From a virus: a DNA stretch of 53,275 bases. Shown here piece by piece: positions 1,965 to 41,590 of the stretch. The stretch lies in UHGV virus genome UHGV-0205694. One strand, 5' to 3'. The stretch's first letter is position 1; each line of letters begins with the position of its first letter. A model generated the notes under the pieces. That model did not search any database, was not told where the DNA came from, and saw only the letters and a program-made list of their open reading frames with translations. The position numbers were made by a program, and so were the translations under genes.

Positions 1965-2704
1965 AATCTATCGCAGAAAGCATGCATAACTTCGATCGGA
2001 AGAACTTCCAACGTATCGCCGCCGGTATGCCTGAAATGCAGGATGCGCAGAGCTTTGCACATCAGGCGACAAAGACGGCTGAGGTATTCAACGAACTGTT
2101 TCGCCAGTTGCTCGCGGTATTCCCGGCGCTTGCCAACAAATCAGCGGAAGACCTCAACGAGATGCGTCGCCAGTGGCTCCTGGCGTTCAAGGAGAACGGC
2201 ATCACCACGGTAGAGCAGATTAACGCCGGCATGCGGGTTGCTCGCAAGCAGGAAAAACCCTTCATGCCATCTCCTGGTCAGTTTGTTGCCTGGTGCCGTT
2301 CTGAGGAGGCGGTGACGGTAGGCCTTCCAGATGCGAGTGAGCTGGTTGATATGGTTTACCAGTATTGCCGGACCCGCGGTCAGTATCCTGACGCTGAGTC
2401 GTACCCATGGCCTGAACACAAAATCGAACCGATAACGCTGAAACACAAAGCCTGCTACTGGATGGTTACCGGTCTGTATACGGATATGCGCGCAAATGGT
2501 CTCAGCGATTCAGAACTGCGTCGTAAAGCATCAGATGAGCTGTTGCGTATGGTTCGTCGCTTGAACGCCGGAGAAACGATTCCAGAGCCGGTTAAGCAGA
2601 TCCCAAAACTCGGCGGACGTCCGCTGAGTAACGAGCAGGGCTTAAACAAAATCGCTGAAATCCGCGCGAAGTTTGGCCTTGGGAGAGGGCGCAACCATGG
2701 CTAA
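1961..2704 (+). CDS. P: replication protein P (DnaB helicase loader)
   Basis: Strong similarity along its length to lambda P as recalled (MK.IA..M.NFDR...RIA..MPE..., ...NAGMRVAR.Q..PF.PSPGQFVAWCR.E..., ...IPEPVKQ.P..GGRPL); ATGA overlap with O. Confidence 0.85.
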   Translation: MKSIAESMHNFDRKNFQRIAAGMPEMQDAQSFAHQATKTAEVFNELFRQLLAVFPALANKSAEDLNEMRRQWLLAFKENGITTVEQINAGMRVARKQEKPFMPSPGQFVAWCRSEEAVTVGLPDASELVDMVYQYCRTRGQYPDAESYPWPEHKIEPITLKHKACYWMVTGLYTDMRANGLSDSELRRKASDELLRMVRRLNAGETIPEPVKQIPKLGGRPLSNEQGLNKIAEIRAKFGLGRGRNHG

Positions 2705-2963
2705 CAAATCACGTGAACAAAAACAGGCCTGCGTCCAGGCGATTATCGAACTTACTCGCGAGAAAGGGCGCCTGACAGTGAAAGAAGCCTGCGCAGAACT
2801 ACGCATGTGCAGGGATACCGCAGGTCGATATTTCCAGGCTGCAGTCAGAACCGGAAAGGTCATCCGCTACGGGCGGCTTGGATTGTTCCGGGACCAGCGG
2901 GCGACCATAGATTTTGACCTTCAGAGATTCAGTCGTCGGAAGGATACGGGAGCATGCAAATGA
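2697..2963 (+). CDS. small hypothetical protein at the ren position (88 aa)
   Basis: ATG overlaps the P stop; basic small protein; position only. Confidence 0.4.
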   Translation: MANKSREQKQACVQAIIELTREKGRLTVKEACAELRMCRDTAGRYFQAAVRTGKVIRYGRLGLFRDQRATIDFDLQRFSRRKDTGACK

Positions 2964-3352
2964 CAGAGCAAACCATTCTCGACATGTGCTGTGGCTCTCG
3001 GATGTTCTGGTTCGATAAACAGGACGAGCGCGCTGTATTCAGTGATATTCGCGCTGAACAGCACAAACTTTGTGACGGTCGCAGCCTGGTTATCAGCCCG
3101 GACATTATTGCCTACTTCCGCGCGCTGCCGTTCGCTGACACCTCTTTCCCGATTGTCGTGTTTGACCCGCCGCATCTTGAACGAGTGGGCGAAAACGCCT
3201 GGATGGGTAAGAAATACGGTCGCCTGAACAAAGATATCTGGCGCGATGACCTGCGCACAGGTTTTGAAGAGGCTTTTCGCGTGCTGCGGCCACACGACGT
3301 AATCATCTTCAAATGGAACGAAACCCAGATAACCGCGCAGCGTCTGGGGTAG
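2954..3352 (+). CDS. small methyltransferase-like protein (132 aa; DPPH motif)
   Basis: DMCCGSRMF (SAM-loop-like) and VVFDPPHL (DPPY/H-like catalytic motif) followed by FRVLRPHDVIIFKW; too short for a full MTase. Confidence 0.35.
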   Translation: MQMTEQTILDMCCGSRMFWFDKQDERAVFSDIRAEQHKLCDGRSLVISPDIIAYFRALPFADTSFPIVVFDPPHLERVGENAWMGKKYGRLNKDIWRDDLRTGFEEAFRVLRPHDVIIFKWNETQITAQRLG

Positions 3353-3445
3353 ATAATTTGGCATCTGAAAAAATCGCAGTTAAGAAAAAAATCTGACGAG
3401 CTTCTCAATCGTTGGAAAGTGGCTGTAAACATTAATAGGGGCTAG

Positions 3446-3520: not shown

Positions 3521-4114
3521 ATGCAAAATTACCCATTACCTTGGACGTTTCATCCGCAGTTAACCGAAGAACGCTTATCTATTATTGCGGAGGCTCTCCT
3601 TAAAGTGCAGGAAGACACGCATGAGCTTTTGTCTTCTTCGCTTGATGATAATTATACCCGAGCAACATGTACTTTTGGGCGCCAGAAAAATCGAATCGTC
3701 AAATTGTGCATGTCAAATAAATACGACTGGTTGGGGCTTTCTAATCCGAATAATGATTACACAATCACTATTGGCGGTATCCCAATCCGTTCATTTAGCG
3801 ATGATCCAACTAATCCGAAAAAGGCTAACTTCTTTCGAAAGAATAGTGTTGATCAGCTATTCGCATCGGAAGATACAATCCCTACGATTTGGCGCTTCGT
3901 TGTAGAGAAACCTGAGTTCGAAGGTGAAGGTGGGCGAGTGCATTTTGCGGGTTATAATGCGCTGGAAGAAATGCTCTCTTTATGGACGTATGGCGAAGAA
4001 CGGGTAACTGTGCTGCATTCTACAGATGATACCCCGCCAGCACCTGTCAAGATTGAGCTGGATGATATCAGCGCTTCTATTCCTGAAAAGGAAAAGAAAA
4101 GCGATAACGGATAA
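3521..4114 (+). CDS. hypothetical protein (197 aa), candidate toxin/effector partner of the HTH-M78 protein
   Basis: Own promoter upstream; 13-nt gap to the next gene; lower GC than flanks; no recognisable motif. Confidence 0.55.
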   Translation: MQNYPLPWTFHPQLTEERLSIIAEALLKVQEDTHELLSSSLDDNYTRATCTFGRQKNRIVKLCMSNKYDWLGLSNPNNDYTITIGGIPIRSFSDDPTNPKKANFFRKNSVDQLFASEDTIPTIWRFVVEKPEFEGEGGRVHFAGYNALEEMLSLWTYGEERVTVLHSTDDTPPAPVKIELDDISASIPEKEKKSDNG

Positions 4115-4127
4115 TAGTAGGTGAAAA

Positions 4128-5240
4128 GTGTTTAACGGTTCTAATTTGCGATTGGCTCGTCTGTATCATGAGTTATCACTGGAGCAAGTAGCTGAGCGGG
4201 TCGATAAGACCCGCCAGTACATTCAGCGGCTGGAATCCGGTTCGGCTGTGCCTACTCCTGAGCTTGCGAATAAATTAGCTGCCGTATTGCTGGTCACGCC
4301 TGAATTTTTCTCAGTGCAAGAGCAGTCTCCAGTGAATGAAGAGCTCGTTCACTTCCGCAAGCGTAGTTCAACACGCATGGCTACTAAGTTGGCGACGCTT
4401 GCTAAAGCTGAATTATATCGCCGCCTCATTGAAGTTTTTGAAGAGTACTTGAATTTACCGCCAGTAAGATTTCCTGAACTGAGAGTAAATACTCAAGAGG
4501 ACATAGAAAGAGCCGCTGAGAAATGCCGGACTGATTGGGGATTAGGTTTTGGGCCGATTGACAATATGACTCGACTTGCTGAAAAGCTGGGAGCATTTGT
4601 TACTTCTTTCGATTCTGTCTCTGATGATGTGGATGCGCTTTCTGTTCCTTTAAGCCGGCCATTCATTGTAAGAAATACGGCTAAAAAATCGCCTTGCCGT
4701 CAGCGTTTTGATATTGCTCACGAAGTAGCACATTTGATTTTGCATGAAGGTATTTCAACGGGAGATCGGGTAACTGAATCTCAAGCTAACCGTTTTGCAT
4801 CGGCATTGCTTTTACCCCGTTCGGCGATGGCAAAATATTTCCCTCGCCCAATTGGTGGTCGTATCGACTGGCAAGGGCTGAGTCAATTTAAATTGACATG
4901 GAAAGTAAGTAAGGCAGCAACAATTTATAGGGCGCATCAGCTTTCTCTCTTAACCGATGCCCAATATAAAACGGCATTCTTCGGTTTAAAGCGCAAGGGG
5001 GAAGCAATTGATGAAAAAGAGGATTATTTGATTCCTAATGAAAAGCCTGAGCTTTTTCATAAGGCAATGAAGTTTCTCTTAACGGATCTGTCTGTTGATG
5101 TTGAGTACTTAGCCAAGCGTTTGTGTATTACCCCGACGATGTTAGCAGAGTTAGCAAACGATAATACGTTAGATTTTGCCCGAGAAGTCGCTAACGAAAA
5201 TGTCGTTTCTCTGTCTGCATACCGAATGAATACCGTTTAA
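4128..5240 (+). CDS. XRE-family HTH fused to an ImmA/IrrE-type (M78) zinc metallopeptidase, 370 aa
   Basis: N-terminal HTH (LSLEQVAERVDKTRQYIQRLESG); HEXXH motif HEVAHLILHE in the C-terminal half, the COG2856-like arrangement. Confidence 0.75.
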   Translation: MFNGSNLRLARLYHELSLEQVAERVDKTRQYIQRLESGSAVPTPELANKLAAVLLVTPEFFSVQEQSPVNEELVHFRKRSSTRMATKLATLAKAELYRRLIEVFEEYLNLPPVRFPELRVNTQEDIERAAEKCRTDWGLGFGPIDNMTRLAEKLGAFVTSFDSVSDDVDALSVPLSRPFIVRNTAKKSPCRQRFDIAHEVAHLILHEGISTGDRVTESQANRFASALLLPRSAMAKYFPRPIGGRIDWQGLSQFKLTWKVSKAATIYRAHQLSLLTDAQYKTAFFGLKRKGEAIDEKEDYLIPNEKPELFHKAMKFLLTDLSVDVEYLAKRLCITPTMLAELANDNTLDFAREVANENVVSLSAYRMNTV

Positions 5241-5606: not shown

Positions 5607-6216
5607 ATCTGCATTCATATGTACAAAATTTAGGATGGTAATTTTTCAAGAGCAGACCAGATGGGTGGGTCTTCCGGTGGTCTGCACATTTGCACAAAAA
5701 AGCGGGGTTTCTGCGTGCGTGCGGGCGAGGCGGGGAGTTGGTGATACCTAAATCCCCTACAGTGACAAAAACCATAAAACGCAAACACGCTATTTGTTAT
5801 CAACAAACCGCAGGTTTGTATTTATGCGAATGATAACCAGGAAGAAACCCGCCTTTACTGGGCTGTATCAGACAGGCGTACTGACTCGCATAGCTGCTGT
5901 AAAAAGTCCTGATGGTGGCGGCTTGCGATTGTTCAGTTTGTGGGGGAGGCAAGGATATAGCTGTGTTTGTGAAGGCTGCTCGCGGAGGAATCCGCGAGTG
6001 GTCTGGTCTCGACTACCTTGCTAACTTCTGCGCGAGCTGCGGAATCAGCCTCTGGGAGATTCACAACAAGGTCACAGAAAAACCGCCGCAGTGATATATA
6101 ATCCCCTCCACACAAGAGTGGGCTTGTGTCGAAGTGGAGCCTCTCCCTCCGGCTTTACATGTAAAATGCGCATTAGTGAACTTTGGACGCAAGGGAAACA
6201 ACAGTTGGTATAGTAT

Positions 6217-6537
6217 ATGAATAAAACATTACTTCTGGTTTGCGCTGTTCTTATATCAAACTTGGCACTTGCTGTAGAAAATAAAGAAGAAATAGTGCCT
6301 GTGCGTATAAGTTGCCCTTTCCCTTATTATCCAGCTTCTGCTATGGCTAATAAGATTAGCGGCACTGTAACATACTCTGCCGAAGTAAATGAAAAAGGAG
6401 AAGTTACTTCTGTTGATACAACTGGCACTGAGATCTTTTTTAGAGAAACTAGATCAGCAATCCGGAAATGCAAGTTTGAGCCAGGAAGACCGGGCATTGC
6501 CCGTGGAACCATAAGATTTAGGCCGTATCAACCGTAA
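6217..6537 (+). CDS. secreted stand-alone TonB C-terminal-domain protein (106 aa)
   Basis: Signal peptide MNKTLLLVCAVLISNLALA. The YPASAMANKISGTVTYSAEV...FEPGRPG region parallels the TonB C-terminal domain (YPARAQALRIEGQVKVKFDV...YEPGKPG). Low GC. Confidence 0.6.
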   Translation: MNKTLLLVCAVLISNLALAVENKEEIVPVRISCPFPYYPASAMANKISGTVTYSAEVNEKGEVTSVDTTGTEIFFRETRSAIRKCKFEPGRPGIARGTIRFRPYQP

Positions 6538-7043
6538 GAGCTCCTAACTTTTTGGGGAAGTTACCTCTGGAACTATGCTTCGCAAGAAGATTTAGATGCA
6601 CATGACATGTTTTATCTATTTCCTGCATAGATTATCTGGTTTTTCTTGCATATGTATGGCGATAAACCTTGCTATTGTATTGGCATTTGGGCTTTACCTA
6701 CAGGCGCGCTCAAGCAAAACATCATGTACCCGCTTCAGTGGGGCTTTTCGCATATGCTCATTTTGCATTTATCCCCAAGGCGAGCGATTATTACCTCGTC
6801 AGCCTGAACACCTGATACCTGTTATCCGGCTCCAAGTGGGGGCACATGGCGCACAAAACCTTAAAGCAATTCCTGTCACCGATGGCGAAAGTCACCGGAT
6901 ATTTTCTGCATTCACCATTTGGCCTCTGCGGAGGTGAAGCGTGAACATTCCTCAAGAAGGCATCAAACTCCATCGCGGTAACTTTTCGGCTATTGATGAA
7001 TACCTACAGCCATATCTGGCGAATGGCGATACCTACTGACTAA

Positions 7044-7226
7044 TACTCAAGCCGCGGCGTGAAATATGCAAAGGATAAGCAGGTCGCGCGCTGTGGCAAT
7101 GCCGTCCCGCCGCCGTTTGCTGAGGCGTTGGTGAGGGCTAATTTACCTGAATTATGTCAAAAGAAAGACCCGCCACCTGATATATATTATAAAGCTGAGA
7201 ATGCAACTGTGTTTGAAATTTGTTGA
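7044..7226 (+). pseudogene. C-terminal remnant of a C5-cytosine DNA methyltransferase
   Basis: Translates to ...KYAKDKQVARCGNAVPPPFAEALVRANLPEL... (motif X, GNAV-PP) with no upstream remainder or start codon. Confidence 0.45.
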
Positions 7227-7433
7227 ATGAAATTATTGAAGTGAATTTATGTGGCGCGCTTATCATTATATAGCTTTAGGTTAAATTATTTGGAAAACTC
7301 TCAATTTGAAAATAGTTAAATCTTTTCTCCATTAAAGCTGCTATTGTCTCTTATGAAAGGGACCCATCAGGTACCAGAGCCTTCTGGTACTTGATTTTTA
7401 AGTCTATCGCTTAGGGAAGATTGAGGGTTTGCC

Positions 7434-7727
7434 ATGGCTAATGATTCACGAGGAAATGAAGTGATCTTCAATCGTGCATATCTAAACTTATGCTTTAAAA
7501 ACAAAAAATTAAGCCCGTTGGTTATAGTGGGGAAAATTAAAGAACACAATATTGTTGAATGTTTTTCTTTTGGTCTTAAGGGTACGATAGATATTGAGTC
7601 AAGATGTCTTTTTTTGCGTTATAAATATCCGTGGCCAGATTTTGAAATTGAACTGGTTAGAAAAAAAGGAGGTGATTATGAGTTCATGCTCTTTCATAAT
7701 TATTTTCTTAAGGGTATTGGCAATTAA
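7434..7727 (+). CDS. hypothetical AT-rich ORF (97 aa)
   Basis: Only an ORF inside a 1.5-kb AT-rich stretch. Confidence 0.2.
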   Translation: MANDSRGNEVIFNRAYLNLCFKNKKLSPLVIVGKIKEHNIVECFSFGLKGTIDIESRCLFLRYKYPWPDFEIELVRKKGGDYEFMLFHNYFLKGIGN

Positions 7728-8017
7728 GACATTTATAATGCTTTTTTAATAAAAATGGATTTCCCTAGACTATATGACTTAGGTGTCTTTTTTCTTGAAC
7801 CTGTCTATAAATAACATTCAAAGAGTATGGCGTACTTTCCGACGCTTCTATCAAATAATTGTAGTGTCGCTAAACACTTATATTTGGCCTCCATGTAATT
7901 AAAAAATGTACTTCTAAATGACTCTTTTGAACTCACATGAGTTGGTTGAATTTTGTTCATCGCGACCTATGCTCCTGTCCATATATAAAGCTATTGTCTA
8001 AAAAAAACCATAAAATC

Positions 8018-8045: not shown

Positions 8046-8106
8046 ATTCCTGACAAAAATTAACGTTTTGTGCTCTTAAGATATTGAACATTCAGTAAGT
8101 TAGGTG

Positions 8107-8126
8107 TACTGTTTATTTATACAGTA
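8107..8126 (+). promoter_or_regulatory. LexA box (SOS operator) upstream of the dinI-like gene
   Basis: TACTGTTTATTTATACAGTA is a near-perfect match to the CTGT-N8-ACAG consensus. Confidence 0.7.
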
Positions 8127-8148
8127 TATCGAACGGGGGGGTGATACC

Positions 8149-8382
8149 ATGAGAATCGAAGTAACCATCGACAAAGCTAAAAAACTGCCTACCGGTGCTG
8201 AACCAGCGTTAGAGGCCGAATTCCTGCGGCGATTAAATCAAAAATATGATGATTGCAAATTATCTATTCGTCGCGCGGGTGCTGATGGACTCAGTGTTTT
8301 CGGTGGCATAGATGGCGATAAAGAAACCATTGCAGAAATTCTACAGGAGACCTGGGAAAGCGCCGACGACTGGTTTTATTGA
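8149..8382 (+). CDS. dinI: DinI-family protein
   Basis: MRIEVTIDKAKKLPTGA...LSVFGG...ETIAEILQETWESADDWFY matches E. coli DinI; LexA box upstream. Confidence 0.8.
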   Translation: MRIEVTIDKAKKLPTGAEPALEAEFLRRLNQKYDDCKLSIRRAGADGLSVFGGIDGDKETIAEILQETWESADDWFY

Positions 8383-8772: not shown

Positions 8773-9372
8773 ATGGCGCAACAATTACACCTGATAAAAC
8801 AGTCTCAAGGTATCCTGATCCCTGCAACGCAGGAGACCAGCGATTTTCTGCAATCAAAATGTAAGCTCGGCGCCGTTCTGGAAGCCGACTATAAGCTTGT
8901 CCGCAATCCGGCGTTTCATCGCCGCTACTTTGCTTTACTCAATCTCGGCTTTGACTACTGGGAACCTACCGGCGGAGCGATCTCATCCAATGAGCGCAAG
9001 CTTGTGTATGGCTACGCCAGTTTTCTAGCCGCCTATGGCGGTAACGAATCAGCCCTGCTTGATGCCGCAGAACAATACCTCGATCGCGTAGCCGAGAAAC
9101 GTGCCGGTAGTATCAGTATTTGCAAATCTTTTGACGCCTACCGGGCGTGGGTCATTGTCGAAGCTGGTCACTATGACGCCATAAAGCTGCCGGATGGCAC
9201 GCTGAAAAAACACCCCCGCAGCATTTCTTTCGCCAGCATGGACGAATGCGAATTTCAGGAACTGTACAAAGCATCGCTCGATGTTCTCTGGCGGTGGATC
9301 CTCTCTCGCTCGTTCAACAGCCCGCTGGAAGTCGAGAACGCCGCAAACCAGCTTTTAAGCTTCGCGGGGTGA
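8773..9372 (+). CDS. hypothetical nin-region phage protein (199 aa)
   Basis: Well-formed ORF with a Shine-Dalgarno; position in the nin region. Confidence 0.5.
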   Translation: MAQQLHLIKQSQGILIPATQETSDFLQSKCKLGAVLEADYKLVRNPAFHRRYFALLNLGFDYWEPTGGAISSNERKLVYGYASFLAAYGGNESALLDAAEQYLDRVAEKRAGSISICKSFDAYRAWVIVEAGHYDAIKLPDGTLKKHPRSISFASMDECEFQELYKASLDVLWRWILSRSFNSPLEVENAANQLLSFAG

Positions 9373-11802: not shown

Positions 11803-12837
11803 ATGACCAGTAATTTAGCATCTGTAACTTATGGTTCTGTTTGTTCTGGAATTGAAGCTGCATCAGTCGCTTGGGAGTCACTCAACTGGAAAGCTGAGTG
11901 GTTCGCAGAGATCGAAAAATTCCCCAGCGCTGTATTGCAGCATCACTGGCCCAACATTCCCAACCTTGGCGATATGACCCGGATTGCAGGGCGTATCCGT
12001 GAAGGGACAATAACAGCACCGGCAGTTCTTGTGGGAGGAACACCTTGCCAGGCATTCAGTGTTGCAGGAAAACGAAAAGGGCTAGATGACGAGCGCGGGA
12101 AGCTTACCTTATCTTTCGTTGAATTAGCAGATCAGATCGACAATACCCGCATTGCATCAGGAAAAGAGCCAGCAATCATTCTTTGGGAAAATGTAACAGG
12201 GGTACTAAATAGCCATGACAATGCATTCGGTTGCTTTCTCGGTGCGCTGGCCGGGGAAGGTTGCGCACTACAGCCAGCAGGGAAAAAATGGGCAAACGCT
12301 GGTGTTGTCTCTGGACCATCGCGAACTGTTGCCTGGCGAGTGCTCAACGCCGAATTTTTCGGAGTGCCCCAGTCACGTAAACGTGTCTTCGTTATGGCAA
12401 GTGCTCGACGTGAATTTGACCCCGGAATGGTTTTATTTGAATTCCCGACTTTGCCTCCGCGCACTGCGAAATATTACGGAGCACAGAAAAAAACCGGCAC
12501 CAGAGCTTATACAGGCATTGAGAGAGAATTCCATCGATATTGCCTGAGGGCAATCCCTGAGACGGCGGGAACTTTACTCGCGAGCTATAACGGAACGTCA
12601 AACCAGGATATGCGAATGCGTGGTGGCTTGATTGTAGAAGTTACCCCCTCCCTTAGAGTTCGCCGGCTCACCCCATCGGAATGTGAACGACTACAGGGCT
12701 TTCCTGTAGGACACACGAATATTCCTTGGCGCTCAAACTCCCCTTTGCCTCGTTACAAAGCTCTCGGCAACTCAATGCCAGTGCCAGTAATGAAATGGTT
12801 AGGAGAGAGAATACAAAATGCTATTTCTTCAACTTAA
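11803..12837 (+). CDS. DNA (cytosine-5) methyltransferase, orphan
   Basis: Motifs: I (VCSGIEAA), IV (TPCQAFSVAG), VI (ILWENV), VIII (QSRKRVF), X (LGNSMPVPV). Confidence 0.85.
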   Translation: MTSNLASVTYGSVCSGIEAASVAWESLNWKAEWFAEIEKFPSAVLQHHWPNIPNLGDMTRIAGRIREGTITAPAVLVGGTPCQAFSVAGKRKGLDDERGKLTLSFVELADQIDNTRIASGKEPAIILWENVTGVLNSHDNAFGCFLGALAGEGCALQPAGKKWANAGVVSGPSRTVAWRVLNAEFFGVPQSRKRVFVMASARREFDPGMVLFEFPTLPPRTAKYYGAQKKTGTRAYTGIEREFHRYCLRAIPETAGTLLASYNGTSNQDMRMRGGLIVEVTPSLRVRRLTPSECERLQGFPVGHTNIPWRSNSPLPRYKALGNSMPVPVMKWLGERIQNAISST

Positions 12838-35455: not shown

Positions 35456-37603
35456 ATGGCCTTTAACCCGGAGCTGGGGAGTACTTCTCCGGCGGTGCTG
35501 CTCGATAATGCCGAGCGCCTGGATAAGCTGGTGAACTCGGACGCTCTCACCGTGCCTGATCGCGCGGATGTTGATCTGGATACCTGGCGCGGATTCATGG
35601 CGAAAAATGACGAGATTCGTCAGAACCTTGTGCCATTGAGTAAGCAGTACATGACGCCTGAAGCGGCTCAGGCTGATATTGCAAACATCCCGGATGGCTC
35701 AACAACCTATGTACGCAGCCCTGATGATGCTTATCTGGCTGTTGAATACAAGAACACGGGTGGAACGTTAGAGGCTACCGGGCGCAGGATGATTTCAGCG
35801 GGATATGTTGACGCGTTGAGGGATTTAGTTATCACCGAACTGGCGAAGATTATGGCCTTCGGTGCCGCGCAGACAACTGATGCTTATCCGGATATTGCTG
35901 AACTGATTCTTGATAGTGTAGGGAATGCAGTTTATCGCCGCTTCGCGGACGGAACGAGCCAGTTTCCGGCGCTGATGATTGGTTCAGGGATTGAGCTTGT
36001 GCAAATGACGGGCGGAGGGTTTGTCTGCCAGATGCGCGCCACCGGAGAAGAAATATTTAATATTTCTGCATTGGGTAACCTGACGCATGGCAGCCAGACA
36101 ACGTGGTTTGCTGATGATGACAGTGTCAGTGATTATGCTGAAATACATATGGACGGACAGGGAAGAATTTTTCGGAGAGTTCTCACGGATGGTACTGTGG
36201 AGCAAGTGGGTGATGATACACCTGATGATGACGCCTCTGAATTCCCAATGGTTGCTTCAGTTGATGGAAACATCATTGCAGTAAACGGCAACAACGTTAC
36301 TCAGATAACGAACGACACCGGAGTTTCAAATATTGCTCCTGTAGCATTCGCTAAATTTCTTCGTTTTCTGTCCAACCTTAGCGGCAACTATCTGACGAAT
36401 CGCTCTACGTATAACGGGAAATACCGGGTGCGTGAAAGCAAGAATATCCTGCTTCATTACATTGGCACCGGGCAATCTCTTAAAGCAGGGGGATCGACGA
36501 TTAGCCAGGCTCCTGTCACTATCGCCTCAGAAGCAGACTATGGAGTGATCAGCTTTTCAACTGGCCCGAAGGTCGATTTCAAATACGATACTCTGGACGA
36601 ATCCCTGCTGGGATCGGCCACCCCTGCGCGAGAAAACGTGGGGACCCGTCCCGGCCAGGAGTCACCATCCAGCGGCATAGCTTATAAAATTCATGAGCTG
36701 ACAGGGCATACCGTTTTGGCCTCCACCGCTGCAAGTTCGGGTACAGATATTGCGGGGATTTCGGCTGGAACCGCCACGTTTACCGCCGCCACCAAAATGA
36801 TTCAGGCGGCCGTTGCGATGGCTGATGAACTGGGCATGGAGTATGTCCCGGTACTTGTGCTCATCCACGGAAACCAGAATGCGGCAGCAGGAACATCGAT
36901 ATCCAGTTATCGCACAGCGATGGAAACCCTGCGCACTCAGTATGAGTCTGTAATAAATGCCGCAACAGGCGAAACGCAGTCACTGCACATGTTTGTCGGG
37001 CAGCTATCCAACACGATCCCATATGGTGGCACTGCCGGCACGACAAAAACCAATAACATTGGCATCGCGCAGTACCAGGAGGCCCGTGATAACGCGTTAA
37101 TCCATCTCGCCAGCGCACAATATGCCCGCCCGTATTCAGACGGGGAGCATCTGACAAGCGCAGGATATCGGACAGAAGGTGAAGTTATTGGCGCGGTGGT
37201 TGGTGGGTGGCTGAATGACAACACAAAATCCTCGCTTGTGCCGATAGAGTCTGGTGTTGTGCAGTCCGGCACCACAATCACTATTCCTGTGGCGGGCTGT
37301 GTAGGTGATCTCGTGATTGACACCGCGAGGGTCACTGACCCCGGCAACTACGGATTTGTCCTGACCAGGGCCACTATTGCTTCGGTAGCCGTCAGCGGCA
37401 GCGGAACAGCGGCAAAAATAGTTATCACAAAGACCGATTCCACCACTGCGACGGCAATATCTTATGCAAGCCAGGGGATTGCGGGACAAAACCCTGGACC
37501 CGTTACTGGTTCGCGGGGGTGCATTCGTGACTCTCAGTCTGGATCATCACTATCCGGCCTGCCTCTCTATAACGATCTATGCGTTTTCTCCATCCAGCTT
37601 TAA
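35456..37603 (+). CDS. tailspike/tail fibre A with SGNH(GDSL)-type esterase motifs
   Basis: N-terminal ~110 aa shared with the inverted gene at 38967-41498. Downstream motifs IGTGQS (block I), IHGNQN (block III) and DGEH (block V). Confidence 0.65.
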   Translation: MAFNPELGSTSPAVLLDNAERLDKLVNSDALTVPDRADVDLDTWRGFMAKNDEIRQNLVPLSKQYMTPEAAQADIANIPDGSTTYVRSPDDAYLAVEYKNTGGTLEATGRRMISAGYVDALRDLVITELAKIMAFGAAQTTDAYPDIAELILDSVGNAVYRRFADGTSQFPALMIGSGIELVQMTGGGFVCQMRATGEEIFNISALGNLTHGSQTTWFADDDSVSDYAEIHMDGQGRIFRRVLTDGTVEQVGDDTPDDDASEFPMVASVDGNIIAVNGNNVTQITNDTGVSNIAPVAFAKFLRFLSNLSGNYLTNRSTYNGKYRVRESKNILLHYIGTGQSLKAGGSTISQAPVTIASEADYGVISFSTGPKVDFKYDTLDESLLGSATPARENVGTRPGQESPSSGIAYKIHELTGHTVLASTAASSGTDIAGISAGTATFTAATKMIQAAVAMADELGMEYVPVLVLIHGNQNAAAGTSISSYRTAMETLRTQYESVINAATGETQSLHMFVGQLSNTIPYGGTAGTTKTNNIGIAQYQEARDNALIHLASAQYARPYSDGEHLTSAGYRTEGEVIGAVVGGWLNDNTKSSLVPIESGVVQSGTTITIPVAGCVGDLVIDTARVTDPGNYGFVLTRATIASVAVSGSGTAAKIVITKTDSTTATAISYASQGIAGQNPGPVTGSRGCIRDSQSGSSLSGLPLYNDLCVFSIQL

Positions 37604-37616
37604 AGGACTGTAAATC

Positions 37617-38369
37617 ATGACTACCCGCTTTTATGTTGATAACGGCGTGACAGCCACGCGTTACCTGGACACTTACCCGTATCCAAACGACATCACGCAA
37701 CTACCAGCACTGATCCCCGGTATTATTTTGCAGGCGGATTTCGATGTGAATGATCCCGCCTCATTAACCAGAAACCGGGTTGGGGCTGCTATGTCCGTTG
37801 TTGGCTCTCCTGCTCTGGGTGATTACGGCGTCAGCCTTACTGAGGTAAACCACCTTGATACGAACATCGACATAGCAGCATATAACGGCAGCGATCTGAC
37901 AATGGTGACAATTGCAGTTCATCCAGGCGTTGTTGGTGCAATTGTAGGGCGCGCACAAATGAATGCCCCCCAGCGCTCGCGTGCGACGCAGACTACAACG
38001 ACAGGATGGCAGGCAAAATGGCTGACGTCTGCCGGAGCGGCGCAGCAGGCCATTATTGTCCCGTCCAGTGCAGCGGTCGATGGCGAAATGGCAGTCAGTC
38101 GGTTTGTGCGAGACAACGGTAGCGGATCAATGCTGACTAAGCTTGATCTGCCACGCACATCACAGTCAGCAACCGGCACCGCAGCGACGACTCCTTATGC
38201 TGTACCTTCGTCAAACATTCTGCTGGGCGGTTCGGTTGAGGGAGGCACGACAGCGAATATCTCTATGCGGGCCTGTCTGATTGTATCCAGGTCAATTACG
38301 AATACTGAAATGGCAACTATTTACACCTGTTACAAAAACTACTATCAGCTGAAAGGTAAAACTATTTAA
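37617..38369 (+). CDS. accessory tail fibre protein for cassette A, hypothetical
   Basis: Position downstream of tailspike A inside the invertible segment. Confidence 0.4.
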   Translation: MTTRFYVDNGVTATRYLDTYPYPNDITQLPALIPGIILQADFDVNDPASLTRNRVGAAMSVVGSPALGDYGVSLTEVNHLDTNIDIAAYNGSDLTMVTIAVHPGVVGAIVGRAQMNAPQRSRATQTTTTGWQAKWLTSAGAAQQAIIVPSSAAVDGEMAVSRFVRDNGSGSMLTKLDLPRTSQSATGTAATTPYAVPSSNILLGGSVEGGTTANISMRACLIVSRSITNTEMATIYTCYKNYYQLKGKTI

Positions 38370-38378
38370 GGGGCAAGT

Positions 38379-38573
38379 ATGGCTGGCTACATTGTCGATT
38401 ATCAGGCAACTAAAAACGGGCAGGTAATTTATTCTGGAACACTGGCGGTTGAGTCAGAGGGAACTGATGCTGCAGTAAAGGAGGCAGTTACAGCCGAACT
38501 GAACAACATCAATACCCAGTATGGCGGCGGCGTACCAGACTCCGTCATCGTTAACTCTTGGCTGGGAATTTAA
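38379..38573 (+). CDS. small hypothetical protein, cassette A
   Basis: Position only. Confidence 0.3.
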   Translation: MAGYIVDYQATKNGQVIYSGTLAVESEGTDAAVKEAVTAELNNINTQYGGGVPDSVIVNSWLGI

Positions 38574-38681
38574 TTTAACCGTAAAAGGATATATCTTCAT
38601 ATTATTTAAGATGAATAGATTTGCGGCTGTCAGTCATCTGGACAGCCGCTCTCATCCATTAAATCTGTGCTGTGAAATAAT

Positions 38682-38957
38682 TTATTGTGAAAAATCCTCC
38701 ATAGTCACAAGCTGCGCTTCTGCTTGTTCTGCCCACGACTTTGAAGATAAAACATCTAAAGTAATAGGGTAATCACCAGCGTTGACCTTCGCTCCATCAT
38801 CATATCGTACTGATATTGATGCCATTAACAGTCCCGCATCATCTTGCCTGACACTTTCAACAGCATAAATCAGGTCAATGTCTATCTCTTTATCGCACAG
38901 ATACCCACCCAGATAATAAATCTGGACTGTTTTTGTTGTTGATAATTTGAAAGCCAT
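38682..38957 (-). CDS. small hypothetical protein, cassette B
   Basis: Downstream of tailspike B on the minus strand. Confidence 0.3.
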   Translation of the reverse strand: MAFKLSTTKTVQIYYLGGYLCDKEIDIDLIYAVESVRQDDAGLLMASISVRYDDGAKVNAGDYPITLDVLSSKSWAEQAEAQLVTMEDFSQ

Positions 38958-38966
38958 AACAATTCC

Positions 38967-41498
38967 TCACGAAGGTAAATAATATTTTTCGCCATAAATC
39001 AGCTTGCACAGACTGAATGCCGCAGCATCTGCGCCAGCCTTGTAACTGACGGTATAGCCGAGGTCATTCGGATGGTTGTAATTAGGAGAGTTAAAAAGCG
39101 CCGACCATCCGTGAACCTCAACACCCAGCCTGAACGAGGGGATTTCAGCCTCCAGTACAAATGCGGATTTCCCACGCGCCACTGCACGCACCATGCTGTT
39201 GTAAAGGCCAAAACGTACATCCCCAACAACTTTAATGCCGCTTCCTGACCAGTCGGCCTCCACAAACGATTTTGAAGGTGGCGGGTCCAGCACCTCTTCA
39301 ATAATGCTGTCGAGATTGATGTGCTGAATGCTGGTATTAAGCAGGCCTGAAACCGGGATATTTTCTGCAACGGTGATGGTTTTCCTGTCCTCGGATATGG
39401 CGGCAATGGTGTAATCACCGGCATTCACACCGCTAACCCGAAGAATGTGCCCCGGTCGCAGGATTTGCCCGCCCCAGCTGGTCGCTGCGTTTCCTGTGTC
39501 ATAGGCAAATGCCGTGCTGTTTATAGTTTTGCTCACTGAATCGAATGTAAAATTCGCTGTAACGTTGAAGGTTCGAACCGGCCACAGGACATTAAGATCA
39601 CCCAGCGTGATGTTTTTGACGGTGGCGGACTCGACATTGTGGTGCGGCGTGGTGCAGACAATAACCACAGCGCCCTTTGCAGTGCACTGGTCAATAAGAT
39701 CTTCCAGCACTGCCCGCTGAAGTGGGTACGTGCGCCCGCGGTTAAAGTTCCCGGTCGGTGTGGCATCATTCATCCCGCCGACAATCAGCACGATATCCGG
39801 CCAGTCTTCAGGCTCACTGCTGGTGAAATAGGGCGAGTTTTGTAGCTGCGCGGCAAACTGGTGTATCGCCTGGCCTCCGATACTCTGGTTGTCGTCGATA
39901 AACTCAAATTCGCCATAGCCAGAAAGGTGCTCTTTCATCGCTTCAATAAACAAAGCGCTAGGAGAGAACGGCGCGCCCACCACACCCCCGTCAGTGGACC
40001 CAGCCCCCAGGCCTATGGAGGAGCCGGGCGTGGTTATAATTATGCGCTTCTTGGTTACAGTTCTGACGCCATTGCTGAACGAAATTTTACCGAATGGCGA
40101 GGTATTGGCCTGGGTTCCGTCACCGATAAGCTTTTTGCTCAGTTTAACGTAGGGGTCAGTGATTGCACCCTGCAGAGTGGTGACATCGCTTATGAGGTTC
40201 AGAATGTCGGTAGTCGGGTCCCCGGCATACAGCAATTTAAAGTTATTCTGTGGTGAGCCTCGGTATTGCACGGTAACAGGCATTGCTGCCCGCAGCTCTC
40301 CGCCAGTTAGTGCGGTATTGGCTCCTTTAAACAAACTACGTGTGACTGAGTTCCCGTAGAGGTCTGTAATAACCAGCGTTGTTGCACCGGTATTCGCCAC
40401 CACAGGCTCAAACGTTATCTGAGTACCGTCACCCAAAGAGCCAGGGATCGTGATTGATACCGCATCAGGAGTAGAGGTATCACTTGTCACTGTGGCTTTG
40501 GAATACGCATTCAATAAGCGGTTTCTGTCTGCCGGGTAGGTCAGCAGCCGAAAATCTGCTGAAGCGAAATTGAATTTAACGAGATACGTATAACCCGCTA
40601 CCAAATCACCAGCCGCGACGTTCGAACCGTTATTCTGCTTTATCTGGCGAGCGGTACCGCCATTGACTGAAAGCGTTGGCGTTCTGGTCGTGTTAGTAGC
40701 GTTCGGAGTAAAGAGGAACACACGATCAGAAGCAACAATACCAGGGATTGTAGATGCGGTGCCGGAATATGCGTCGGCATTATTAACAACTCCCGAAAGT
40801 AACGCGATGCTGTTTATTTCCAGTGCTGAAATTCTGACAGCCAACTCGGCCGCTACCGGACCGGATGCGACCATAACAAAATTATTAGCAGTCCCGGTTC
40901 TGAATTGCATCAAAACGGGCTGGCCCAGAAGTAATTCACCTCCGGTTAACGTCCCGTTGTTTTGCTTCTGTATTGCGCGCGTGACGCTGTTTCCCTTCGT
41001 ATCTGTAACGGTCACATTGACCGCAGCAGTGTTTAGAATTGGGGAAAGAAAATAGACCAGGCTACCTTCAATCAACAGTCCAGGAATGGTGATAGCGATA
41101 GTATTAGCCGCGCTGCTGCTAACCGCGGTAGCAGACTGATATCCCGTTGGAATCGCCGATGGCATTTTCCGACCCGTTGCAACCAGCGTACCGCCGACAT
41201 TCATATACTCAATAGCCAGATAAGCATCATCAGGACTGCGCACATAGGTTGTTGACCCATCCGGGATATTGACGATATCCGTCTGGGCCGCCTCAGGCGT
41301 CATGTACTGCTTACTCAATGGCACAAGGTTCTGACGAATCTCGTCATTCTTCGCCATCATTCCGCGCCAGGTATCCAGATAAACGCCAGCGCGGTCCGGT
41401 TCGGTCGGCGCATCACCATTCACCAGCTTATCCAGGCGCTCGGCGTTATCGAGCAGCACTGCGGGAGACGTGCTCCCCAGCTCCGGGTTAAAGGCCAT
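38967..41498 (-). CDS. tailspike/tail fibre B (alternative, currently inverted) with SGNH-like esterase motifs
   Basis: N-terminus ~85% identical over ~110 aa to tailspike A; C-terminal motifs TPGSSIG, GGMNDA and NHPNDLGY. Confidence 0.65.
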   Translation of the reverse strand: MAFNPELGSTSPAVLLDNAERLDKLVNGDAPTEPDRAGVYLDTWRGMMAKNDEIRQNLVPLSKQYMTPEAAQTDIVNIPDGSTTYVRSPDDAYLAIEYMNVGGTLVATGRKMPSAIPTGYQSATAVSSSAANTIAITIPGLLIEGSLVYFLSPILNTAAVNVTVTDTKGNSVTRAIQKQNNGTLTGGELLLGQPVLMQFRTGTANNFVMVASGPVAAELAVRISALEINSIALLSGVVNNADAYSGTASTIPGIVASDRVFLFTPNATNTTRTPTLSVNGGTARQIKQNNGSNVAAGDLVAGYTYLVKFNFASADFRLLTYPADRNRLLNAYSKATVTSDTSTPDAVSITIPGSLGDGTQITFEPVVANTGATTLVITDLYGNSVTRSLFKGANTALTGGELRAAMPVTVQYRGSPQNNFKLLYAGDPTTDILNLISDVTTLQGAITDPYVKLSKKLIGDGTQANTSPFGKISFSNGVRTVTKKRIIITTPGSSIGLGAGSTDGGVVGAPFSPSALFIEAMKEHLSGYGEFEFIDDNQSIGGQAIHQFAAQLQNSPYFTSSEPEDWPDIVLIVGGMNDATPTGNFNRGRTYPLQRAVLEDLIDQCTAKGAVVIVCTTPHHNVESATVKNITLGDLNVLWPVRTFNVTANFTFDSVSKTINSTAFAYDTGNAATSWGGQILRPGHILRVSGVNAGDYTIAAISEDRKTITVAENIPVSGLLNTSIQHINLDSIIEEVLDPPPSKSFVEADWSGSGIKVVGDVRFGLYNSMVRAVARGKSAFVLEAEIPSFRLGVEVHGWSALFNSPNYNHPNDLGYTVSYKAGADAAAFSLCKLIYGEKYYLPS

Positions 41499-41521
41499 GT
41501 TTTTTGCTCCAAAAAATAGCG

Positions 41522-41547
41522 TTCGCTTAAACGAGGGTTTGAGCGAA
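41522..41547 (+). other. hix/gix-like 26-bp inversion crossover site (right, inverted)
   Basis: TTCGCTTAAACG-AG-GGTTTGAGCGAA; its reverse complement matches the left site at 23 of 26 positions. Confidence 0.5.
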
Positions 41548-41590
41548 CGCCAGGAGCTTTTTACAATCAGCTATTTCAAAGGGTTACATC

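What the first reader, a model, noticed from the sequence alone, without database searches (positions are those of the whole stretch)
6217..6537. Secreted stand-alone TonB C-terminal domain: a possible periplasmic decoy or superinfection-exclusion factor
The 106-aa low-GC ORF has a Sec signal peptide and then a segment that aligns motif-by-motif with the TonB C-terminal domain. This is the part that contacts TonB boxes of outer-membrane receptors (YPxxA...G.V.V...V...G.V..V......F...A..A.....++..FEPG+PG). A soluble periplasmic copy could compete with TonB at FhuA/BtuB/FepA-type receptors. It could thereby block TonB-dependent phages and colicins, analogous in outcome to T5 Llp or phi80 Cor.
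Basis: partly seen in the sequence, partly recalled or inferred. Interest (0 to 1): 0.6.

Follow-up and report, generated by a model that had tools for sequence, protein, structure and literature searches.

The report
Prophage-encoded secreted copy of TonB's tip
A Klebsiella prophage carries a small gene for an exported copy of just the receptor-contacting end of the host protein TonB; it probably acts as a decoy that blocks phages and protein toxins that hijack TonB to enter the cell, but no experiment has tested this.

Summary
Window 6217..6537 (+) is a 106-aa ORF with 40.5% GC (window 50.6%). It encodes a Sec-type signal peptide (ALA|VE) followed by a complete TonB C-terminal domain. Pfam TonB_C scores 38.2 bits (cut-off 24.6). 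The AF2 model superposes on E. coli TonB-CTD, including its BtuB- and FhuA-bound forms, at 1.3-1.6 A. It is not a TonB: it lacks the membrane anchor and the proline-rich spacer.

The gene is real and under selection. I recovered 45 distinct sequences from 65 loci, with domain dN/dS 0.27. All prophage copies sit in the cargo slot between the replication genes and dinI/ninB of Klebsiella/Raoultella lambdoid prophages. In this window it lies 1 kb downstream of a Rosmer defence system.

Two features were not in the original finding. Two cysteines absent from TonB are invariant across the family. Chromosomal relatives (45-50% identical) are translationally coupled to, or fused with, a lipoprotein copy of TolA domain III, the other envelope hub hijacked by colicins and phages. 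Lone TolAIII lipoproteins also occur on 1,305 plasmid records and in phage mEp460.

Best reading (about 0.5): a periplasmic decoy of the Ton import pathway. Lab-exported TonB fragments already show this effect. Expression timing, binding partner and phenotype are untested, and I found no paper on the family.

The parts
6217..6537 (+). Gene for the 106-aa secreted stand-alone TonB C-terminal domain protein (stop codon included).
   Evidence: The ORF is. Family matches: Pfam and TIGRFAM TonB_C above their cut-offs and phrog_36291, function unknown, at E=4e-42. The exact protein is deposited as 'TonB family protein [Klebsiella oxytoca / Klebsiella]' on 31 contigs. Purifying selection is shown.
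6217..6273 (+). Signal peptide, residues 1-19 (MNKTLLLVCAVLISNLALA), with predicted SPase I cleavage between A19 and V20.
   Evidence: This is read from the sequence and from conservation of the A/V-x-A motif in 45 homologues. Cys9 is variable, so there is no lipobox. dN/dS is relaxed here (0.78) compared with 0.27 in the domain. No signal-peptide predictor was run.
6298..6519 (+). TonB_C fold, residues 28-101. Order of elements: strand 30-32, helix 40-44 (after the Y38-P39 'YP' motif), strands 49-57 and 63-70, helix 72-83, bridge 86-87, edge strand 93-101 (the counterpart of TonB beta3, which pairs with TonB boxes).
   Evidence: The AF2 model is and the Foldseek matches to 1u07, 1xx3, 2gsk_B and 2grx_C are. 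The residue map P36=TonB P161 through G93=G221 comes from BLASTP.
6313..6471 (+). Span bounded by the family-specific cysteine pair. Cys33 (codon 6313-6315) corresponds to TonB R158. Cys85 (codon 6469-6471) corresponds to TonB W213. I infer a periplasmic disulfide.
   Evidence: Both cysteines are invariant in all prophage, chromosomal and fused relatives down to about 35-45% identity, and absent from TonB. The model places strand 30-32 and bridge 86-87 next to the two cysteines. The bond itself is inferred, not shown.
6184..6216 (+). Conserved leader of the cassette: SD-like AAGGGA at 6191-6196, TTG at 6205-6207, then an in-frame TAG at 6211-6213.
   Evidence: About 30 nt upstream of the ATG are conserved even where the farther flank differs. 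In relatives the TTG or ATG at -12 looks like the start codon: where Met1 is CTA, the -12 codon is ATG in five of six such upstream variants and CTG in the sixth. In this window a TAG follows, so ATG 6217 must be used, with a poorly placed SD.
6091..6213 (+). Context only: a degenerate upstream ORF that is the remnant of a DNA polymerase III theta (HolE/Hot-like) gene. The cassette abuts it.
   Evidence: Relatives carry 'MSKWNI..DKVNVDL..GVACKMRISELW' fused in frame to the TonB_C ORF (P0001 and P0022). ST974-OXA48phi18.2 annotates the fusion as 'DNA polymerase III subunit theta'.
3521..5240 (+). Context only: Rosmer anti-phage defence system. RmrT is at 3521-4114 and RmrA at 4128-5240 (HTH plus M78 peptidase). 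It lies 1 kb upstream in the same cargo region.
   Evidence: PADLOC gives RmrT E=1.5e-94 and RmrA E=2.7e-205. Pfam finds HTH_3 plus Peptidase_M78. None of the other 64 loci carries it.
8104..8382 (+). Context only: dinI, the gene that follows the cassette in most related prophages.
   Evidence: phrog_189 DinI. In related loci the order is TonB_C, intrinsic terminator, LexA box, dinI.

Best explanation
The gene encodes a small soluble periplasmic protein that is a copy of only the globular C-terminal domain of the energy transducer TonB. It has no membrane anchor and no proline-rich spacer, so it cannot transmit energy.

Shown: the ORF; the TonB_C fold; a signal-peptide-like N-terminus; purifying selection; location in prophage cargo; and linkage of relatives to TolA domain III.

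Inferred: after Sec export and signal-peptide cleavage, the 87-residue domain folds and is probably stapled by a Cys33-Cys85 disulfide. Through its exposed edge strand it then binds the short 'TonB box' strands that TonB normally grips. These boxes occur on outer-membrane TonB-dependent transporters and at the N-termini of TonB-dependent bacteriocins. By occupying or sequestering them, the domain uncouples the import step that TonB-dependent phages and protein toxins require. The carrier cell gains exclusion or tolerance and pays with some loss of siderophore and B12 uptake. Interference with the TonB-ExbD contact is a possible additional target.

Whether the protein is made in the lysogen or only after induction is unknown.
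For: Identity of the domain:
- Pfam and TIGRFAM match above their cut-offs.
- The best PDB sequence matches are E. coli TonB-CTD.
- The AF2 model matches TonB-CTD, including its BtuB- and FhuA-bound chains, at rmsd 1.3-1.6 A.

It is not a full TonB:
- TonB equivalog models score 24-33 bits against cut-offs of 265-448.
- The protein is 106 aa with only a cleavable hydrophobic N-terminus.

It is a functional gene:
- 45 distinct sequences in 65 loci, with domain dN/dS 0.27.
- An invariant cysteine pair is absent from cytoplasm-synthesised, membrane-anchored TonB. This fits a protein that matures in the oxidising periplasm.

Experimental precedent:
- Periplasmically exported TonB(33-239) causes iron-deficient growth and abolishes 55Fe-ferrichrome transport.
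- The exported domain also blocks the ExbD-TonB interaction (bioRxiv 10.1101/2020.01.05.895219).
- From memory of Howard et al. 2001 (J Bacteriol 183:5885), which I could not retrieve: phi80 infection and colicin M killing were also inhibited.

Context:
- The gene always lies in the variable cargo slot between replication genes and dinI/ninB of lambdoid prophages.
- In this window it is 1 kb from a Rosmer defence system.
- An intrinsic terminator follows the gene in at least 38 of 62 related loci.

Comparative link:
- Relatives with the same cysteine pair are followed by a TolA-domain-III lipoprotein whose ATG overlaps their stop (TAATG) in Yokenella and Phytobacter.
- In two proteins the TonB_C domain is fused to TolAIII, with 109 bits to PF06519 and close similarity (E about 5e-33) to E. 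coli TolAIII.
- TolAIII is the hub used by group A colicins and Ff phages, through the same beta-augmentation mode (PMC7391070).
- Lone TolAIII lipoproteins occur on 1,305 plasmid records and in the moron slot of phage mEp460.

Relevant threats exist in Klebsiella:
- FhuA- and TonB-dependent phages (PMC10783003).
- The TonB/ExbB-dependent toxin TelA (PMC12042878).

Variability:
- Within the folded domain, positions 35 and 37, which align with TonB Q160 and Q162, are among the most variable. From memory, genetics links that segment of TonB to the TonB box.
Against: - There is no binding, localisation, expression or phenotype data.
- No promoter was found upstream. In this window there is also no downstream terminator, and the conserved TTG start is closed by a TAG. 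The gene may therefore be only weakly translated here, and perhaps transcribed only from the early lytic operon.
- The residues aligned with TonB R158, Q160, R166 and W213 are replaced by C, F, S and C. The 'YP' tyrosine is Met in most relatives. The binding surface may have been retargeted.
- The shortest inhibitory TonB fragment cited in the text I read begins at residue 122. This protein corresponds to about 152-233.
- Blocking TonB would starve the host of iron, a real cost for Klebsiella.
- PADLOC has no model for the protein.
- Cargo genes next to the cassette in four other loci gave no meaningful defence hits (one marginal match).
- The prophage's own tail tip gives no hint that it uses a TonB-dependent receptor.
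Confidence: 0.5

Rival explanations
1. Retargeted binding module. The TonB-CTD fold is used only as a scaffold that has evolved to bind one particular partner: a single transporter's plug or signalling domain, a periplasmic protein, or peptidoglycan. Its role could be unrelated to general exclusion, for example tuning one uptake or signalling pathway of the host.
For: Key TonB surface residues are replaced: R158C, Q160F, R166S and W213C, with YP becoming MP in most relatives. Chromosomal relatives are stable host genes at fixed loci in Yokenella, Phytobacter and Enterobacter-like genomes. This suggests a function the cell tolerates continuously. The profile search finds many other proteins that reuse TonB_C in non-TonB architectures, including tandem arrays.
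Against: The edge strand and overall fold are kept at 1.3-1.6 A from TonB bound to its receptors. Coupling and fusion specifically with TolAIII, which is very similar to the authentic TolA domain, are hard to explain unless mimicry of the two energy-transducer tips is the point.
Confidence: 0.2
2. Lytic-cycle takeover factor. The protein is made only from the early right operon after infection or induction. It shuts down the Ton system for the phage's own benefit. Possible benefits are preventing superinfection and toxin entry while progeny are being made, or changing iron/Fur physiology. It would not act as a lysogenic-conversion trait.
For: The gene lies on the same strand as, and between, P and ninB/Q in the delayed-early region. 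No promoter was recognised. This window's copy has no terminator of its own.
Against: Most related loci have a terminator directly after the gene, and a few have one in front of it. That is the layout of an autonomous cargo cassette. Chromosomal relatives function outside any phage. Mechanistically this rival overlaps the best explanation and differs only in timing.
Confidence: 0.15
3. Passenger fragment. A piece of a host tonB gene was picked up by illegitimate recombination and carried along without any function.
For: Low GC and mosaic surroundings containing gene remnants: a theta fragment upstream and a ninB fragment downstream. The start context in this window is damaged.
Against: dN/dS is 0.27 over the domain across 45 distinct sequences. 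The family has acquired and kept a signal peptide and an invariant cysteine pair. The ORF is intact in 64 of 65 loci. The family spans several genera with distinct architectures.
Confidence: 0.03

Closest known systems
C-terminal domain of the energy transducer TonB (E. coli TonB residues about 150-239; PF03544/TIGR01352; PDB 1U07, 1XX3, 2GSK, 2GRX)
   Same: The fold and order of secondary-structure elements are the same. The conserved motifs are shared: P-x-YP, G-x-V, the helix FxRE..A, and EPGxPG followed by the edge strand. Identity is 33-38% and rmsd 1.3-1.6 A.
   Different: There is no N-terminal membrane anchor with its His motif and no proline-rich spacer, so there is no link to ExbBD. 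A cleavable signal peptide takes their place. A loop is 3 residues shorter. A cysteine pair replaces R158 and W213. The protein ends right after beta3. It is encoded by a prophage.
Engineered periplasmic TonB fragments (signal sequence fused to TonB 33-239, 103-239 or 122-239)
   Same: An anchor-less TonB C-terminal portion is delivered to the periplasm. Exported TonB(33-239) abolishes ferrichrome transport and blocks the ExbD-TonB interaction. All three fragments inhibit TonB system activity. From memory of Howard et al. 2001, phi80 and colicin M were also blocked.
   Different: Those are laboratory constructs that were overexpressed and are longer. This one is natural, is the minimal domain (about 152-233), has diverged to 33-38% identity, is probably disulfide-stabilised, and has unknown expression.
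Receptor-blocking superinfection-exclusion lipoproteins Cor (phi80/N15/T1 group) and Llp (T5), which inactivate FhuA
   Same: The proposed outcome is the same: a temperate or lytic phage gene makes the cell refractory to phages and toxins that enter through a TonB-dependent transporter. This comparison rests on general knowledge of those systems.
   Different: There is no sequence relationship; the only meaningful PHROG hits are phrog_36291 and a TonB family. The protein is not a lipoprotein, since there is no conserved lipobox. The proposed mechanism is mimicry of the host energy transducer, which would act on many receptors rather than one.
Stand-alone TolA domain III lipoproteins of plasmids, phage mEp460 and some enterobacterial chromosomes (annotated 'TolA'; uncharacterised as far as I could find)
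   Same: They are also an exported copy of only the C-terminal hub domain of an envelope energy transducer. They are carried by mobile elements. They are physically linked to relatives of this protein by operon coupling and by gene fusion.
   Different: The domain is different (PF06519, not PF03544). They are lipid-anchored. They are far more widespread (1,305 plasmid records). None is present in this window or in the related prophage loci.
Specialised TonB paralogues (HasB, FusB, TonB2)
   Same: They have a TonB_C fold that diverged for particular partners (Foldseek hits 7zc8, 2m2k and 2k9k).
   Different: By general knowledge, those keep the membrane anchor and work as energy transducers. 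This protein cannot.

Membership tests
TonB_C domain (Pfam PF03544 / TIGR01352) | Profile match above the curated cut-off | tested here: met
   PF03544 scores 38.2 bits against 24.6. TIGR01352 scores 40 bits against 27.1.
TonB_C domain (Pfam PF03544 / TIGR01352) | Three-stranded sheet packed against two helices, superposable on solved TonB-CTD | tested here: met
   AF2 pLDDT is above 93 over residues 30-100. Foldseek target TM is 0.78-0.84 and rmsd 1.3-1.6 A to 1u07, 1xx3, 2gsk_B and 2grx_C.
TonB_C domain (Pfam PF03544 / TIGR01352) | Conserved 'YP' motif at the start of the domain | tested here: met
   Y38-P39 align with TonB Y163-P164. In most relatives the Tyr is Met while the Pro is invariant.
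TonB energy transducer (full-length TonB, NCBIfam PRK10819 equivalogs) | N-terminal membrane anchor that couples to ExbB/ExbD, plus a proline-rich periplasm-spanning spacer | tested here: not met
   The protein is 106 aa, and the only hydrophobic stretch is a cleavable signal peptide with an AxA site. There is no Pro-rich region. Equivalog scores are 24-33 bits against cut-offs of 265-448, and the matches cover only the C-terminal part of the models.
Cor/Llp-type receptor-blocking exclusion lipoproteins | Lipobox and lipid anchoring | tested here: not met
   LLVC is not a canonical lipobox, and Cys9 is L or S in many relatives.
Cor/Llp-type receptor-blocking exclusion lipoproteins | Sequence homology to Cor or Llp families | tested here: not met
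   The PHROG scan gives only phrog_36291 (unknown function) and phrog_34172 (TonB-like alignment), plus non-significant hits.
Cor/Llp-type receptor-blocking exclusion lipoproteins | Confers resistance to phages or colicins that use the targeted receptor | not testable with these tools
   Plating and killing assays are needed.
Phage moron (autonomous cargo cassette) | Own promoter upstream and terminator downstream; presence or absence varies among otherwise related phages | tested here: inconclusive
   A terminator 110-140 nt after the stop is found in at least 38 of 62 related loci, but not in this window. No convincing sigma-70 promoter was found. The cassette has a sharp left boundary about 30 nt upstream and sits in different flanks. 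Its GC is 10 points below the genome.
Catalogued anti-phage defence systems (PADLOC-DB 2.0) | Match to a defence-protein model | tested here: not met
   No PADLOC family matched at E<=0.01. The neighbouring RmrT and RmrA genes do match.
Cys-pair secreted TonB-CTD subfamily (defined here) | Exported N-terminus, C-P-x-P near the domain start, x-C-x-F after helix 2, GDE(V/I)FF, and a 3-residue deletion relative to TonB | tested here: met
   The window protein has all of these, with T-E-I-F-F in place of GDEVFF. It is closer to the TonB_C half of fusion P0193 (44% identity, ungapped, 63 bits) than to E. coli TonB (38%, gapped, 48 bits).

The most novel reading that the evidence does not exclude
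Exported copies of the tips of the two envelope energy transducers may form a previously unrecognised class of periplasmic 'hub-mimic' immunity. The copies are the TonB C-terminal domain and TolA domain III. They occur alone, coupled in an operon, or fused in one lipoprotein, and are carried by prophages, plasmids and some chromosomes. They would protect cells by soaking up the TonB boxes and TolA-binding strands that bacteriocins and phages use to enter. The gene in this window would be the prophage-borne Ton-specific member.
Probability: 0.35. Interest if true: 0.8.

Novelty: new variant of a known kind. Interest (0 to 1): 0.66.

Why it matters
Known phage exclusion at the outer membrane works by masking or altering one receptor (Cor, Llp) or by changing surface sugars. 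A natural decoy of the host's own energy transducer would be a different principle: one small protein could blunt every invader that needs TonB.

- It would affect phage therapy in Klebsiella, where FhuA- and TonB-dependent phages are being used.
- It would affect the activity of TonB-dependent bacteriocins and of siderophore-conjugated ('Trojan horse') antibiotics.
- It would impose an iron-uptake trade-off relevant to virulence.
- The link to stand-alone TolA domains on more than a thousand plasmid records suggests the idea may generalise.
- It gives a simple, directly testable hypothesis for a set of widely mis-annotated 'TonB family protein' and 'TolA' genes.

Tried and rejected
- Lipoprotein reading: rejected. 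Cys9 is not conserved and there is no lipobox.
- Spanin or lysis role: the phrog_1267 hit at E=0.089 is not significant, and the gene is far from the lysis cassette.
- Promoter search: the consensus scan and inspection of 41 distinct upstream variants gave nothing convincing. No LexA box lies upstream; the LexA box found belongs to the downstream dinI.
- Does this phage itself use a TonB-dependent receptor? The J-like tail-tip C-terminus matches only other Klebsiella prophages and distant Pseudomonas and Salmonella siphophage tips, which is uninformative.
- Defence-island test in other loci: ten neighbouring cargo proteins from four loci gave no meaningful PADLOC hit. The Rosmer association is specific to this window.
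- Viral structure library (BFVD): no match at E<1e-3.
- E. coli complete genomes: the cassette is absent at the DNA level. Plasmids: only two Klebsiella records carry it.
- Rfam: nothing in the window. tRNA: none.
- The search for related loci with the divergent alignment failed because no conserved stretch was available.
- Literature: ten full-text searches found no paper on a phage- or plasmid-encoded TonB-CTD or TolAIII decoy. The paper that deposited ST16-OXA48phi5.1 ('periplasmatic protein TonB') does not mention it. Howard et al. 2001 could not be retrieved.
Full report
**1. What is at the coordinates.** Window 6217..6537 (+) is an ATG-to-TAA ORF of 106 codons. Its GC content is 40.5% against 50.6% for the window. 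The product begins MNKTLLLVCAVLISNLALA|VENKEE. This has a basic n-region, a hydrophobic core and an A-x-A cleavage site, which is the layout of an SPase I signal peptide. No signal-peptide predictor was available, so this rests on the sequence and on conservation of the motif in all relatives. The cysteine inside the hydrophobic core is replaced by Leu or Ser in many relatives, so it is not a lipobox cysteine.

**2. The domain.**
- Residues 28-101 match Pfam TonB_C (PF03544) at E=2e-9 and 38.2 bits, cut-off 24.6.
- They match TIGR01352 at 40 bits, cut-off 27.1.
- Full-length TonB equivalog models reach only 24-33 bits against cut-offs of 265-448, and the matches cover only their C-terminal ends.
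- Among solved structures, the best sequence matches are E. coli TonB C-terminal domain entries 1XX3, 2GSK, 1U07 and 2GRX.
- An AlphaFold2 model built on 16 family members has pLDDT above 93 over residues 30-100.
- Foldseek places the model on TonB-CTD structures at target TM 0.78-0.84 and rmsd 1.3-1.6 A. These include the chains crystallised with BtuB and FhuA. TolA domain III appears only as a distant tail of the hit list.
- BLASTP fixes the residue map: P36 = TonB P161, Y38-P39 = Y163-P164, and EPGRPG = EPGKPG at 216-221.

The protein is a TonB C-terminal domain. It is not a TonB, because the membrane anchor and the proline-rich spacer are absent.

**3. It is a real gene under selection.**
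- The word-indexed protein search found 24 clusters, all from Klebsiella or Raoultella.
- Seven deposited Klebsiella phage genomes carry the gene. One annotates it 'periplasmatic protein TonB'.
- IMG/VR yielded 54 further viral loci. The species-representative genomes added Raoultella scottii, Yokenella regensburgei and an Enterobacteriaceae MAG.
- The exact window protein is deposited as 'TonB family protein' of Klebsiella oxytoca and other Klebsiella, on 31 contigs. This also names the likely host.
- Across 65 loci there are 45 distinct protein sequences. The ORF is intact in all but one.
- Nei-Gojobori dN/dS is 0.27 over the folded domain, 0.78 over the signal peptide, and 0.2-0.3 for the window against other clades.
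- PHROGs already groups the prophage copies as phrog_36291, function unknown.

**4. Family-specific features not in the finding.**
- Two cysteines are invariant in every relative down to about 35-45% identity: Cys33 (aligned with TonB R158) and Cys85 (aligned with TonB W213). TonB lacks both.
- The model puts a short strand (30-32) and a bridge (86-87) directly beside them. I infer a disulfide that staples the N-terminal segment to the loop before the edge strand. A disulfide would form only outside the cytoplasm, which is independent support for export. This is an inference, because I could not inspect coordinates.
- The family also shares a three-residue deletion relative to TonB and a GDE(V/I)FF motif. 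The protein ends just after the strand that corresponds to TonB beta3.
- Within the folded part, positions 35 and 37 are among the most variable. They align with TonB Q160 and Q162, a segment that genetics links to the TonB box (from memory). This could reflect diversification of specificity or simply low constraint.

**5. Genomic setting.**
- The window is a complete or nearly complete temperate lambdoid phage. It carries CII, O, P, NinB, NinG, Q, holins, endolysin and spanin. It also carries a tail tip, tail fibres, an invertase, an integrase, RecT and an exonuclease.
- The gene lies on the early-right strand between P and dinI/ninB. Every prophage relative has it in the same slot.
- The slot is mosaic. 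Upstream of the cassette is the remnant of a Pol III theta (Hot-like) gene, which in some relatives is fused in frame to the ORF and misleads annotation.
- In this window a ninB fragment and a 36%-GC insert lie downstream.
- One kilobase upstream lies a Rosmer defence system: RmrT at E=1.5e-94 and RmrA at E=2.7e-205. Rosmer is unique to this window among the 65 loci. Cargo genes from four other loci gave no meaningful defence hits. The defence context is therefore suggestive, not general.

**6. Expression signals.**
- About 30 nt upstream of the ATG are conserved even when the farther flank changes, which marks the left edge of the cassette.
- In relatives a TTG or ATG 12 nt upstream, preceded by AAGGA at a good distance, looks like the true start. 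Where Met1 is replaced by CTA, that upstream codon is ATG in five of the six such upstream variants (CTG in the sixth).
- In this window a TAG closes that reading frame. Translation must therefore begin at ATG 6217, which has a poorly placed Shine-Dalgarno sequence.
- At least 38 of 62 related loci have a clean intrinsic terminator 110-140 nt after the stop, followed by a LexA box and dinI. This window has none.
- I found no convincing promoter.
- Whether the protein is made in lysogens or only from the antiterminated early transcript is open.

**7. Relatives outside prophages, and the TolA link.**
- A profile search of 1.8 billion representatives found further small exported TonB_C proteins with the same cysteine pair. 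Some have lipoboxes.
- Their contexts are chromosomal. In Yokenella and Phytobacter the gene lies between a GNAT gene and dinI-umuDC. It is followed by a 138-140-aa lipoprotein whose ATG overlaps its stop (TAATG). That lipoprotein is a TolA C-terminal domain, scoring 81-83 bits to PF06519.
- A third, short contig shows the same arrangement.
- In Enterobacter-like genomes the TonB_C gene stands alone at the equivalent locus.
- Two proteins, P0192 and P0193, are single lipoproteins in which this TonB_C domain is fused to a TolA domain III (109 bits to PF06519, closely similar to the E. coli domain at E about 5e-33). They are encoded a few genes from the authentic tonB, in a clsA..tonB..ompW..trp region that also holds a lone TolAIII gene.
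- The window protein is closer to the TonB_C half of that fusion (44% identity, ungapped) than to E. coli TonB (38%, gapped).
- Lone TolAIII lipoproteins also turned up on 1,305 plasmid records and in the Q-to-lysis moron slot of Escherichia phage mEp460.

**8. How it most likely works.** TonB and TolA are the two periplasm-spanning energy transducers. Their C-terminal domains are hubs that bind short partner strands by beta-augmentation. Those same hubs are what group B and group A colicins and several phages exploit (PMC7391070).

A copy of the hub that is exported but not connected to the motor can only bind and compete. The experiment has in effect been done with TonB:
- Periplasmically exported TonB(33-239) causes iron-deficient growth and abolishes 55Fe-ferrichrome transport.
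- The exported domain also blocks the ExbD-TonB interaction (bioRxiv 10.1101/2020.01.05.895219).
- From memory of Howard et al. 2001, which I could not retrieve, phi80 infection and colicin M killing were inhibited too.

Klebsiella faces the relevant threats: FhuA- and TonB-dependent phages (PMC10783003) and a TonB/ExbB-dependent phage-borne toxin (PMC12042878).

I therefore favour a periplasmic decoy. It would either occupy the TonB boxes of transporters or sequester the TonB boxes of incoming toxins. The second mode would be cheaper for the cell. The repeated pairing and fusion of Ton and Tol hub copies is the strongest comparative argument. It is hard to explain unless mimicking both transducer tips is the function.

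I put this at about 0.5, for four reasons. Nothing is shown about binding, localisation, expression or phenotype. Several TonB surface residues are replaced. The domain is shorter than the fragments tested in the laboratory. The iron cost is real.

**9. Rivals.**
- A retargeted scaffold with a single specific partner: 0.2.
- A lytic-cycle-only takeover factor: 0.15. This is the same mechanism with different timing.
- A functionless passenger: 0.03, and largely excluded by selection.

**10. Novelty.** The domain call itself is already in public annotation ('TonB family protein', phrog_36291). No function is assigned, and ten full-text searches found no study of a natural exported TonB-CTD or TolAIII decoy. 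The library is incomplete, so an existing report cannot be excluded. Relative to known receptor-level exclusion (Cor, Llp), this would be a new variant working by mimicry of the host energy transducer. It is not a member of those families.

Noticed in passing
window 3521-5240 (+): A complete Rosmer anti-phage defence system sits in the cargo region between P and the TonB_C gene. RmrT (197 aa) is followed by RmrA (370 aa, HTH plus M78 peptidase). None of the other 64 related loci has it.
   Followed up: partly
window 51212-52628 (-): Two adjacent genes match the PADLOC candidate defence system PDC-M11: M11A (352 aa, E=1e-133) and M11B (124 aa, E=3e-50). They lie in the early-left/immunity part of the phage.
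   Followed up: no
window 35456-42142: A likely invertible tail-fibre module. Two large fibre genes on opposite strands (35456-37603 + and 38967-41498 -) share nearly identical N-terminal regions of about 110 aa but have different C-termini. A DNA invertase gene (41591-42142) lies next to them, suggesting host-range switching by inversion.
   Followed up: no
L071:7321-7737, L072:7327-7749; P0192/P0193; L074:3215-3604: Chromosomal relatives of the TonB_C protein are translationally coupled to a lipoprotein that is a stand-alone TolA domain III (Yokenella, Phytobacter). In another enterobacterium they are fused to it; there the fusion gene lies near the authentic tonB, beside a further lone TolAIII gene.
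   Followed up: yes
L077:3959-4393 (plasmid NZ_CP056858.1); L076:3977-4405 (phage mEp460_ev081, LR597641.1 40533-40961): Stand-alone TolA-domain-III lipoproteins of about 140 aa, annotated simply 'TolA', occur on 1,305 plasmid records (mostly Klebsiella and E. coli). One also lies between Q and the lysis genes of a lambdoid coliphage. I found no paper on them.
   Followed up: partly
window 6091-6213 and related loci (L002:4863-5321, P0001, P0022): The cassette abuts the remnant of a DNA polymerase III theta (HolE/Hot-like) gene. In some phages the remnant is in frame with the TonB_C ORF, so the fusion is annotated 'DNA polymerase III subunit theta'.
   Followed up: partly
window 6205-6219: The likely family start codon (TTG at -12, with a well-spaced AAGGA) is followed here by an in-frame TAG, forcing use of ATG 6217. 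The same TCG-to-TAG change occurs independently in locus L052 of another clade.
   Followed up: partly
window 6745-6985 and 7200-8000: A fragment of about 240 nt, 85-87% identical to ninB or recombination genes of other Klebsiella phages, lies 2 kb upstream of the intact ninB (8773-9372). It is followed by a 36%-GC insert with an orphan 97-aa ORF (7434-7727) that has no family match.
   Followed up: no
window 6147-6318 versus the rest of the gene: The leader, the signal peptide and the first 34 or so codons are 82-90% identical in DNA across clades whose mature domains are only 58-65% identical in protein. This suggests that allele swapping by recombination happens at the conserved 5' end.
   Followed up: no
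window 2673-3364: DNA methyltransferase matches cover only part of the family profiles (132-aa ORF at 2954-3352). This suggests a truncated or split methylase gene after P. A second, full-length methylase lies at 11803-12837 between Q and the lysis genes.
   Followed up: no
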